From: Styela clava
Lineage: Eukaryota
DNA: 64,000 nt
Assembly: GCF_964204865.1 (NCBI RefSeq)
Contig: NC_135257.1
Coordinates: forward strand, 8,742,001-8,806,000
Direction: 5' to 3'
Position 1 is the stretch's first letter, and each line of letters begins with the position of its first letter. Positions 27,001 through 30,000 of this stretch are shown here, piece by piece. Made by a program: the position numbers.

Positions 27001-30000
27001 CCTCTTGGTGTGATCTATACCTATAGCAATTCGTTGATCTGTGTGTAAAAGGCATATGATTTAAATAGTGTGAAGCAAAGTTAAGTTGAAATTCGTCAAG
27101 AAAAATACCTGAAAATGCGAGTGAATACAATAATTTTTTTAAGTTTATTAAATCCCGTTTCTACCTCCGTTCTTTTCCATGTTAACATTTGGCAATGTTT
27201 ATTTACATTACACGGTTTGTTAATAAATGGGAAATACGTTCTACTTGGTTACGCTGAAAATTAGGATGTTTTGTCCCAAATGATTAGAACCCTCTATTCC
27301 ACATATGTGTTAATTTTCCAACATATGTGGTACGACACCGATTCACAAACAACATCATATAAAATGCTTAGCAGGAATTTAATTTAAAAAGTGAACCTCT
27401 GTAAAGGTTGTTCATACATATTCTTTTGTGACCAAATTTTAAGCTGACTCAATTTTGACGTGTTCGAGTCATGACTTAAAAAGAGCTTCACAACATGTGG
27501 TGCAATTTTCTCTACAATAAAATTCACTAATAGTAATGTTAAATAAATAATATCAAATACCGGTACATGCAAATGGCTCCGACTTGGCGAGATTCTACAA
27601 AACAAACCCATGCATATGTTTTAGAGGCAAAATCGTGTCATTGTTATTGATTTGTGAATATCGTATATTGATATAATATATTTCAAAGCCATTTGAGTTG
27701 GTCCAGCTTGTGTAGTAGTCTATAAAAATCCCTACATGAGAAATACTATATTCGGATTGGAGAATGCCTCTCATTAGCAATAATAGACTACTATCATTTG
27801 AGCTAACAAAAGTTAGTTAAATTCTATCATTAGGCTCTTATTCTATATGATAAAGTAATCAATATATAATTGTAAATTCCGGTTAAACAGGGATACATTC
27901 ACATAGTGCGAGATGGTATATCAATGCATTCGTGATAGACATTTACTATTAATAATACTCGGTCATTTTATAATTTCATGCTCGGCTGTTACACATTCCA
28001 GCTGACCTTTCGGTTTAAAATTCTAGTCAGAAATAAAAAAAATTCGTAGTTTTGTGAATTTCGATTCAATATGATATAATCCAGATTCTAGTTTAGTTAC
28101 AAGCCCTCGCGAAAAATAAATTTTATTTTTTGAAAATTTTAATTTACTAGTTAAATTTGTTATTTTTGCTGTAATTGATCAAGTCATGATCAAGATCACG
28201 ACGGAAAGCAATTAATGCATTAATATGACCATATATTGATGTGAATGTTATATGTCAACAATTCAATATGGTTTTAACTCTTAGCCATCCACGTTATCAT
28301 GATATTAACACTTCGTTATTTGCGCATAGACGTGACATTACTTATTTTATCAAAACCAACTGAGTTCAGTTCACAATATACATTTGGTTTCAAGCCAAGA
28401 TCACAGAAGGCTGTCGCACAGTTGATGGCAGTCTTCAAACATAAGTTTTATTCGGAAATTACACATTACGTCATACGTGTATTTTAACAAGATAATACCA
28501 TTTATTAAATGATAAAGGGGAGGTCCAGCTTTAAATTAGTTATTGCACTTTTGTATCTTCTGCTAAATAACCGGCTTCCATTCGCCACAAAGTTCTGGTT
28601 TATGGCCAATACTGTACAAACGCGCCTTGTGGATACCACCAGTATTACCGAAGACGACAATAAAGCAAACAAGGTATTATTTTGTGTAACCGCTCAGACA
28701 GCCACCCTCTCCTCCGCTCTCAATATCGACAGCGGAGCGATCTTCAACGATTACCACGGCAGTATGCTGCACGGCGATAACCGAATTTCACGCTCAGAGA
28801 GGGTGGAAACAACGCATCAACGCGGTTGCGAAACCGTCAAGTCATAGACGTCACGGTCAAGATACACACTATAGAAATGATCCCTAAAAGTATGATCTTA
28901 GCCACTCCAAATAAAAATATATTAGAGTACTGTCCTTTTATGCTCCTATTTGTGGTAAAAAAATATATTAAATCTTCAACTTGTTATCACACAAGCGCTA
29001 AAGTTATGAGAATAGCCGTTTTGATGGCATTAAAAAAATAAATTGTTCTTGTCAGTTGATTATTTTACCCACAACTTCATGACGATAATTAGGTAAATTG
29101 ATATTTTGTCAATGAGAAAAGAGGAAACGCTGGAATTCAAGAACATTCTGTAAATGCCCGACCGTAATATCTTACCAAATGTTCTCATTTTACTGTTACT
29201 ATAACGGATTTGTACATATTATATTGATGTCATATTATAATATAAAATGCCAAATCTGACTAAAAGTTTACTTTCGTGGAATGATTTAATATTGGAATTA
29301 CGTTATCATGCCAATAATTCCAAGTATTGCATTTCATGAAAAGTGAAATAATGGAGTTTGTAGGTGTTTTAATTTGATCCAGCAGGGCATAATGAAACAT
29401 ATATGGATCATAGGTGGATTAATACTCATGGACGTAATTTATGTAGGGCCCAGGCTTGGCAATAATCGTTTCAAAGTGGGATTGTTGTGAAATAAATTTA
29501 TAGCAACAATAATGACGTTTTGAAGCGTCGGGTATATTAATAGTGCTTCTAGCACGTAAACGTGAACCTCATAGAAATGTACTTTCCGTAGGAAGAAAAT
29601 GCATCTGAAAAATACCGGATAAATATCCGGGTTATATGTATATATAATAGATATTCTTAAATCTCGTTTAGGCTAGTGAAAAAAATAATGACGAAAAAAT
29701 ATAAAAAAGAATATAGGAAGAATAGATTTTGTTGTTATATTTCACACGTATATATTGGCATCATAATTTAATGGCGCGTTTTCGAGTATACAACGTTGTA
29801 ATATTAGCGATCCTCGATGACTTCTGAATATAAATAAAGTAATGCTAAACATTGCTAATGCCCACATTATTGATTAATTAGACTTGACCAGATACAGTGG
29901 CCATGAGAAAAAGTTTCAGTTTCAAAAAGCGTGCATCCAATTATTTTAAATATCCATATGAGTTCTATAAAAATCTATGCCTTAAATATACGAATTTAAT

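What the first reader, a model, noticed from the sequence alone, without database searches (positions are those of the whole stretch)
28689..28960. Complete U3 snoRNA gene hidden antisense in the largest P-Rex intron
Seen: all U3 boxes and stems on the minus strand, plus a PSE-like element. Known: animal U3 is transcribed independently from an snRNA-type promoter rather than processed from introns, and is highly expressed. Inference: a strong transcription unit facing P-Rex elongation between the PH and DEP exons could cause interference or truncated DH-PH transcripts. The 112-aa plus-strand ORF here is only its shadow.
Basis: partly seen in the sequence, partly recalled or inferred. Interest (0 to 1): 0.65.

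Follow-up and report, generated by a model that had tools for sequence, protein, structure and literature searches.

The report
U3 snoRNA gene inside P-Rex intron
A complete, normal-looking copy of the U3 small nucleolar RNA gene, which helps make ribosomes, sits backwards inside an intron of a sea squirt signalling gene; it is real but ordinary.

Summary
Rfam's U3 model (RF00012) matches window 28689-28899, minus strand, end to end (130.1 bits against a gathering score of 34, E 8.7e-29). It is the only RNA family hit in the 64 kb.

The window is Styela clava, an ascidian, not human. The U3 lies antisense in a 3,177-nt GT..AG intron (26833-30009) of a P-Rex-like gene. This intron falls between the last PH exon and the first DEP exon and is the largest gap between the mapped coding exons.

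The copy is full length, with no poly(A) tail or flanking duplication. There is no T4 run for 333 nt after its 3' end, and one lies inside the gene, which argues against Pol III.

The "PSE-like element" is not supported. The vertebrate PSE consensus does not match upstream. What stands out instead is a TATA-like 12-mer present only twice in the window, at -25 and -71.

Expression, copy number, conservation of the nesting and interference with P-Rex could not be tested. Verdict: a genuine, probably active U3 gene in an ordinary nested position, of low novelty.

The parts
28689..28899 (-). U3 small nucleolar RNA gene, 211 nt, 50% G+C
   Evidence: Rfam RF00012 at 130.1 bits, E 8.7e-29, model 1-219/219. 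MFE z-score -4.17. It forms a G+C island of 0.49 in an intron that is 0.315 G+C without it.
28868..28884 (-). 5' domain core (GAC/box A region), RNA positions 16-32
   Evidence: Every upper-case consensus position of model 1-43 is matched in the alignment.
28814..28819 (-). Box C' core UGAUGC (last base departs from the UGAUGA consensus)
   Evidence: alignment.
28787..28795 (-). Box B (GAGCGUGAA)
   Evidence: alignment.
28738..28746 (-). Box C, UGAAGAUCG (one U>A against the consensus UGAUGAUCG)
   Evidence: alignment.
28694..28697 (-). Box D (CUGA), followed by the 3' half of the terminal stem
   Evidence: alignment.
28913..28924 (-). TATA-like 12-mer TAATATATTTTT at -25..-14 from the U3 5' end; candidate TATA element (inferred)
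   Evidence: This is one of only 2 copies of the 12-mer in the window, with 0.13 expected. A TATA-like string at -35..-9 occurs at 5.5% of random positions.
28959..28970 (-). Second copy of the same 12-mer at -71..-60; candidate upstream promoter element (inferred, untested)
26833..30009 (+). Host intron of the P-Rex-like gene, 3,177 nt, GTGAGT...AG, phase 1
   Evidence: It is the largest gap between mapped coding exons.
26679..26832 (+). Upstream host exon, end of the PH domain (to about aa 370 of XP_039271145)
   Evidence: tblastn. PF22697 positions 70-103 of 106. PH domain at aa 229-362.
30010..30149 (+). Downstream host exon, PH-DEP linker and start of DEP1 (aa 371-417)
   Evidence: tblastn at 100% identity. 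DEP from aa 401.
28509..28847 (+). 112-aa stop-to-stop ORF on the opposite strand; not a gene
   Evidence: No Pfam family above cut-off.

Best explanation
This is a genuine U3 small nucleolar RNA gene of the ascidian Styela clava. It is nested in antisense orientation in the 3.2-kb intron that separates the PH and DEP1 coding exons of a P-Rex-like Rac exchange factor gene.

Shown: the sequence and structure are those of a full-length U3. The 5' domain is intact, and the C'/D and B/C box pairs are present.

From established knowledge of the family: these two box pairs form the K-turn sites for Snu13/15.5K, Nop56, Nop58, fibrillarin and Rrp9/U3-55K. The 5' domain pairs with pre-18S rRNA and the 5' ETS in the small-subunit processome.

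Inferred: the gene is transcribed on its own, from a promoter within the intron, most likely by RNA polymerase II as in other animals. It lies on the strand opposite to its host, carries a T4 run inside the gene, and has no T-run terminator after it.

Its place in the P-Rex intron is most likely an incidental nesting in the roomiest intron, with no demonstrated effect on P-Rex.
For: - U3 identity: Rfam U3 at 130.1 bits, E 8.7e-29, full model length, the only RNA family hit in the window. All boxes are present. Folding z-score is -4.17.
- Not a retro-copy: it is not truncated, has no A-rich tail and no flanking direct repeats. The repeat finder families in 26800-30100 are scattered chance pairs of 12-28 nt.
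- Host and orientation: exons map on the plus strand, with GT..AG borders.
- Polymerase: TTTT lies at RNA positions 11-14. The first TTTT after the 3' end is at +334, a distance reached at only 4% of 17,430 sampled positions.
- Promoter hint: a TATA-like 12-mer at -25 is repeated at -71, and these are the only two copies in 64 kb.
- Context: U3 was found in all tunicates analysed, at low copy number. There are 3 loci in Didemnum vexillum (passages of PMC5006418, and PMC8704543). A given intact copy is therefore more likely to be needed.
Against: - There is no expression evidence of any kind.
- No recognisable PSE: 0 of the 9 window matches to the recalled vertebrate consensus lie upstream of the U3. 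None of the 12 octamer matches lies in the 1.1 kb upstream that remains within the intron.
- Box C carries U>A at its fourth position, and box C' ends in C instead of A. I expect these to be tolerated in a K-turn, but I did not test that.
- A TATA-like string at -25 is unusual for vertebrate Pol II snRNA-type genes. It also occurs by chance at 5.5% of positions in this A+T-rich DNA.
- Copy number in the genome is unknown, so this could be a redundant or silent copy.
Confidence: 0.72

Rival explanations
1. It is a silent or decaying duplicate (pseudogene) of U3. The sequence is still nearly intact, but the promoter is not functional, and the working copies lie elsewhere in the genome.
For: No verifiable PSE or octamer upstream. 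There are departures from consensus in boxes C and C'. snRNA-type genes commonly have dispersed copies (passage of PMC8704543).
Against: It is full length with all 22 most conserved 5'-domain positions intact, and only 4 non-standard pairs. It shows no hallmark of retroposition. The unusual duplicated TATA-like 12-mer sits exactly in the promoter zone. U3 copy number is low in another tunicate (3 loci).
Confidence: 0.17
2. The gene is transcribed by RNA polymerase III from a TATA-plus-upstream-element promoter, as U3 is in plants (recalled knowledge).
For: TATA-like element at -25..-14, with a second element 46 nt upstream.
Against: A T4 run at RNA positions 11-14 would act as a Pol III terminator. 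No T4 follows within 333 nt of the 3' end.
Confidence: 0.05
3. One reading: the antisense U3 unit is a strong roadblock that lowers full-length P-Rex output or yields truncated DH-PH transcripts.
For: The geometry is right: convergent units, with the U3 1,856 nt after the donor. Interference by small antisense units nested in introns has a precedent, the Polr3e/MIR case (PMC5358760, abstract in the listing). Nested-gene interference in general also has precedents (PMC3192792, PMC5174743, abstracts).
Against: Nothing in the sequence shows it. The three RefSeq isoforms differ only far downstream, and none ends here. Nested genes are common without measurable effect (PMC8467205, title and abstract). 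The unit is only about 0.2 kb.
Confidence: 0.08
4. The match is chance, or the region is protein-coding on the plus strand (the 112-aa ORF).
For: An open frame of 112 codons exists.
Against: E 8.7e-29 for U3. The ORF has no family match above cut-off and lies inside an intron of a well-mapped gene.
Confidence: 0.01

Closest known systems
Animal U3 snoRNA (Rfam RF00012; vertebrate U3/SNORD3-type genes)
   Same: Same length class. Same 5' hairpin and box A region, C'/D and B/C motifs, and terminal stem. Full-length covariance-model match at 130 bits. It is independent of the host gene's splicing because it is antisense.
   Different: Box C reads UGAAGA and box C' reads UGAUGC. There is no match to the vertebrate PSE consensus or octamer upstream. 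Instead there is a TATA-like 12-mer at -25, repeated at -71.
U3 loci found by homology search in other tunicates (Didemnum vexillum, Ciona, Botryllus, Oikopleura)
   Same: U3 was detected with the same Rfam model in all tunicates analysed, at low copy number. There are 3 loci in D. vexillum (passages of PMC5006418; PMC8704543).
   Different: Those passages give no promoter or host-gene context, so I cannot say whether the P-Rex nesting is shared.
Bombyx mori U3 Bm-101, which overlaps a protein-coding gene
   Same: A U3 gene that shares genomic space with a protein-coding gene and is expressed differently from it (passages of PMC3089462).
   Different: Bm-101 overlaps the first exon by 64 bp. 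Here the U3 is wholly intronic and antisense.
Antisense MIR Pol III unit in the first intron of mouse Polr3e
   Same: A small, independently transcribed unit nested antisense in an intron.
   Different: That unit is Pol III-occupied, and its effect on the host was shown experimentally. Here the polymerase is probably Pol II and no effect is shown.

Membership tests
U3 snoRNA (RF00012) | Covariance-model score above the curated gathering score over the full model | tested here: met
   130.1 bits against 34, model 1-219/219, E 8.7e-29.
U3 snoRNA (RF00012) | Conserved 5' domain (box A'/A and GAC region) that pairs with pre-18S rRNA | tested here: met
   All 22 upper-case consensus positions in model 1-43 are matched (my count). 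The pairing to rRNA itself was not tested.
U3 snoRNA (RF00012) | Box C'/D motif closed by a terminal stem | tested here: met
   UGAUGC at 28814-28819 and CUGA at 28694-28697, with the outer stem paired. The last base of C' departs from consensus.
U3 snoRNA (RF00012) | U3-specific box B/C motif (Rrp9/U3-55K site) | tested here: met
   Box B GAGCGUGAA and box C UGAAGAUCG lie in the expected internal loop. One U>A in box C; the G-A dinucleotides are kept.
U3 snoRNA (RF00012) | Hinge complementarity to the species' own 5' ETS and 18S rRNA | not testable with these tools
U3 snoRNA (RF00012) | Expressed, capped, nucleolar RNA | not testable with these tools
   No read or transcript data are available.
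Animal snRNA-type Pol II gene | Proximal sequence element near -55, shared with the species' other snRNA genes | tested here: inconclusive
   The vertebrate consensus (recalled) has 0 of 9 window hits upstream of the U3. PSEs are lineage-specific and hard to see in many invertebrates (passage of PMC2655684). There is no other snRNA gene in the window to compare with.
Animal snRNA-type Pol II gene | No Pol III terminator; 3' end formed by a 3' box | tested here: inconclusive
   No T4 for 333 nt downstream, and a T4 inside the gene, which fits Pol II. No 3' box matching the recalled vertebrate consensus was seen by eye in the sequence. The downstream 149 nt has no unusual fold (z -0.80).
P-Rex (PIP3-dependent Rac exchanger) host gene | DH-PH, two DEP, PDZ and a long C-terminal region, in that order | tested here: met
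   Exon by exon: RhoGEF (E 1e-5), PH (1.2e-9) and DEP (3.2e-9). A C-terminal exon retrieves only P-Rex or uncharacterised tunicate proteins, 9 of 9 hits. RefSeq P-Rex-2-like proteins map along 21714-45266, with domains as.

The most novel reading that the evidence does not exclude
The nesting is not incidental. A constitutively active, convergent U3 unit, driven by an unusual promoter built on a duplicated TATA-like 12-mer, sits exactly at the DH-PH / DEP boundary. It acts as a transcriptional roadblock that tunes full-length P-Rex output or releases a catalytic DH-PH-only product, and the arrangement is conserved among styelid ascidians.
Probability: 0.06. Interest if true: 0.55.

Novelty: new member of a known kind. 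Interest (0 to 1): 0.2.

Why it matters
As it stands it matters little. It is a correct annotation of a housekeeping RNA gene in an ascidian genome, of a family already found in every tunicate examined. The S. clava genome paper says snRNAs were predicted with Infernal (passage of PMC7540406), so the locus was probably already picked up automatically.

Two modest points of value remain:
- It gives one anchored example of a tunicate snRNA-type promoter region. Among the papers my searches listed, none described such a promoter for tunicates (15 of 1,188 papers listed, none containing 'proximal sequence element').
- It is a clean natural case for testing whether a small convergent unit nested in an intron affects its host gene.

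Tried and rejected
- Protein Atlas look-up of the TTC39C-like ORF, to name the organism, was unavailable. A homology search replaced it.
- The vertebrate PSE consensus and the octamer motif gave no hit in the promoter zone. The bacterial-type promoter and terminator scan is not meaningful for a eukaryote and was not used.
- A search for target-site duplications or transposon ends around the U3 found only scattered short chance repeats.
- The 149 nt downstream of the U3 was folded to look for a second RNA or a structured 3' element. Nothing unusual turned up: z -0.80, and 36 of 200 shuffles fold as well.
- Sub-threshold Rfam hits in the window are all weak microRNA-family matches to one perfect palindrome at 34324-34468. 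I read this as a foldback repeat, not a microRNA. The OrzO-P hit at E 0.91 is chance.
- Literature searches for U3 with Ciona and promoter, for U3 with PSE and intron, for Styela clava with snoRNA, and for PSE with tunicate terms found no description of this locus or of tunicate snRNA promoters among the papers listed.

Full report
**What is there.** A cmscan of the whole 64-kb window, both strands, against the 4,227 Rfam families gives a single match above a gathering score. It is U3 small nucleolar RNA (RF00012) at 28689-28899 on the minus strand. It scores 130.1 bits against a gathering score of 34, with E 8.7e-29, covers model positions 1-219 of 219, and is not truncated. A more permissive scan finds no second U3 fragment and no other snRNA-type gene, and ARAGORN finds no tRNA. 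The 211-nt RNA folds at -82.4 kcal/mol. Shuffles average -63.9 (sd 4.45), giving z -4.17, and 0 of 200 shuffles fold as well. It is 50% G+C in an intron that is 31.5% G+C without it.

**Anatomy.** In the alignment the 5' domain (model 1-43) matches every one of the 22 upper-case consensus positions, by my count from the printed alignment.
- Box C' is present as UGAUGC (28814-28819), with the last base C instead of A.
- Box B is GAGCGUGAA (28787-28795).
- Box C is UGAAGAUCG (28738-28746), with one U>A at the fourth position.
- Box D is CUGA (28694-28697), followed by the 3' half of the terminal stem.

The G-A dinucleotides that make the sheared pairs of the two K-turns are intact. That the two substitutions are tolerated is my inference from general K-turn knowledge, not a test. 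Four base pairs are flagged non-standard (8 marks), all in the variable hairpins or the long central stem.

**Whose genome, and the host gene.** The window contains no N and is not human. The intronless ORF at 7623-9383 (minus) is 100% identical over 99% of its length to a UniRef entry named tetratricopeptide repeat protein 39C-like of Styela clava.

- Of ten ORF pieces scanned against Pfam, two gave RhoGEF (E 0.0038 and 1e-5, both below the curated cut-off), two gave the SOS1/NGEF-like PH domain (1.2e-9 and 4.5e-4) and one gave DEP (3.2e-9). Only the PH match at 24948-25208 and the DEP match pass their curated cut-offs.
- Three pieces gave nothing, and one gave only a weak, probably spurious, phosphatase match.
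- A C-terminal exon piece (43867-44160) retrieved 9 proteins at E<=0.001 among 54 candidates. Five of the nine are named P-Rex or Rac exchanger, and the other four are uncharacterised or unnamed records; every hit whose organism is shown is an ascidian (Phallusia, Clavelina, Ciona savignyi).
- The best of these, XP_039271145, maps by tblastn as about 40 plus-strand pieces from 21714 to 45266. Most are 92-100% identical. The lower values come from alignments that run into introns.

Its domains are RhoGEF at aa 15-199, PH at 229-362, DEP from 401 and PDZ at 695-762.

**The intron.** The exon ending the PH domain stops at 26832 and is followed by GTGAGT. The next exon starts at 30010 after AG, and the split codon restores the residues of the database protein.
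- The intron is 26833-30009, 3,177 nt.
- The U3 3' end lies 1,856 nt after the donor, and the U3 5' end lies 1,110 nt before the acceptor.
- The first 13 gaps between mapped exons are listed. The other 12 of these are 204-882 nt.
- From the coordinates, the later gaps are all under about 1.25 kb. The largest, 42023-43268, holds an alternative 19-aa exon.

'Largest intron' therefore holds for the coding part of the gene in this window. Introns in untranslated regions could not be assessed. 'Between the PH and DEP exons' is correct.

**How it is probably expressed.** The RNA is antisense to the host, so it cannot be released from the spliced P-Rex intron and needs its own promoter. That much follows from the geometry.

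It has none of the marks of a retro-copy. It is full length, and its 3' flank is not A-rich. The repeat search over 26800-30100 returns only scattered chance pairs of 12-28 nt, none bracketing the gene.

Pol III is unlikely. A TTTT run sits at RNA positions 11-14. The first TTTT after the 3' end is 334 nt away, a distance reached at only 4% of 17,430 sampled positions in the window.

- The vertebrate PSE consensus, which I recalled from memory, gives 9 hits in the window at up to 3 mismatches (8.4 expected), and none is upstream of the U3.
- None of the 12 octamer matches lies in the 1.1 kb upstream of the gene within the intron.
- This is weak evidence either way. PSEs differ between lineages and are hard to recognise in many invertebrates (passage of PMC2655684). 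The window also holds no second snRNA gene for comparison.

What does stand out is the 12-mer TAATATATTTTT at -25..-14 (28913-28924) and again at -71..-60 (28959-28970). These are the only two copies in 64 kb on either strand, with 0.13 expected. The pattern was chosen after seeing it, so the statistic is indicative only. A looser TATA-like string falls at -35..-9 at 5.5% of random positions. I read the pair as a candidate TATA element plus upstream element. From memory, sea urchin U2 genes need a TATA box near -25, and plant snRNA genes combine an upstream element with a TATA box. That is a lead, not a result.

**What it does.** By membership in the family, the RNA should act in the small-subunit processome, pairing through its 5' domain and hinges with pre-18S rRNA and the 5' ETS. 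The pairing itself could not be checked, because no rDNA is at hand.

**The interference idea.** The geometry (convergent units) allows it, and there are precedents for nested antisense units affecting their hosts (abstracts of PMC5358760, PMC3192792 and PMC5174743 in the listing). Another study found no expression divergence for nested protein-coding genes in mammals (PMC8467205, title and abstract). Nothing in this sequence speaks for it. The three RefSeq protein isoforms of the cluster differ only at aa 1213-1249 and at the 19-aa exon at 42740-42796. I give it about 8%.

**Comparison with what is known.**
- U3 was found in all tunicates analysed in a Rfam-based survey (passage of PMC5006418).
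- Didemnum vexillum has 3 U3 loci (passage of PMC8704543).
- The S. clava genome paper states that snRNAs were predicted with Infernal (passage of PMC7540406), so this locus has probably been picked up automatically before. I recall that NCBI's annotation pipeline also places Rfam-based snoRNA features, but I could not check that.
- A U3 gene sharing space with a protein-coding gene is also on record in silkworm (passages of PMC3089462).
- I found no paper describing this locus, its nesting, or tunicate snRNA promoters among those listed.

**Verdict.** The promoter claim is unverified and the functional inference is untested. It is a new member of a well-known kind, in a common genomic arrangement, and of low interest.

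Noticed in passing
window 28913-28924 and 28959-28970 (minus strand): The 12-mer TAATATATTTTT occurs only twice in the 64 kb. Both copies are upstream of the U3 on its strand, 46 nt apart, at -25 and -71. It may be a tunicate snRNA-type promoter architecture.
   Followed up: partly
window 34324-34468, and 14337-14371: A 145-nt near-perfect palindrome lies in a later P-Rex intron (MFE -101.2 kcal/mol, z -21). It draws weak sub-threshold microRNA-family hits. Its 35-nt end recurs with one mismatch at 14337-14371, so it looks like a foldback or MITE-type repeat family.
   Followed up: partly
window 7623-9383 (minus strand): An intronless 586-codon ORF is 100% identical to the Styela clava TTC39C-like protein and matches Pfam Iml2/TPR_39 at E 1.9e-101. 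An uninterrupted coding region beside a neighbour with about 40 exons may mean a retrogene origin. This was not examined.
   Followed up: no
window 11744-13003 (plus strand): A 419-aa open frame with a reverse transcriptase domain (RVT_1, E 9.4e-26). It is a non-LTR retroelement fragment lying between the TTC39C-like and P-Rex-like genes.
   Followed up: no
window 51808-53943 (plus strand): A 711-aa open frame with DUF4371 and the hAT C-terminal dimerisation domain. It is an apparently intact hAT-type transposase downstream of the P-Rex-like gene.
   Followed up: no
window 42740-42796 (plus strand): A 19-aa exon present in RefSeq isoforms X1 and X3 but skipped in X2 of the P-Rex-like protein. 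Isoform X3 also lacks aa 1213-1249.
   Followed up: partly
window 28355-28688 (minus strand): The 333 nt downstream of the U3 have no TTTT on the U3 strand, in a 34% G+C genome. The first ~150 nt are somewhat richer in G+C than the rest of the intron. They have no unusual fold and no Rfam hit. This is unexplained and may be chance, since 4% of positions reach that distance.
   Followed up: partly
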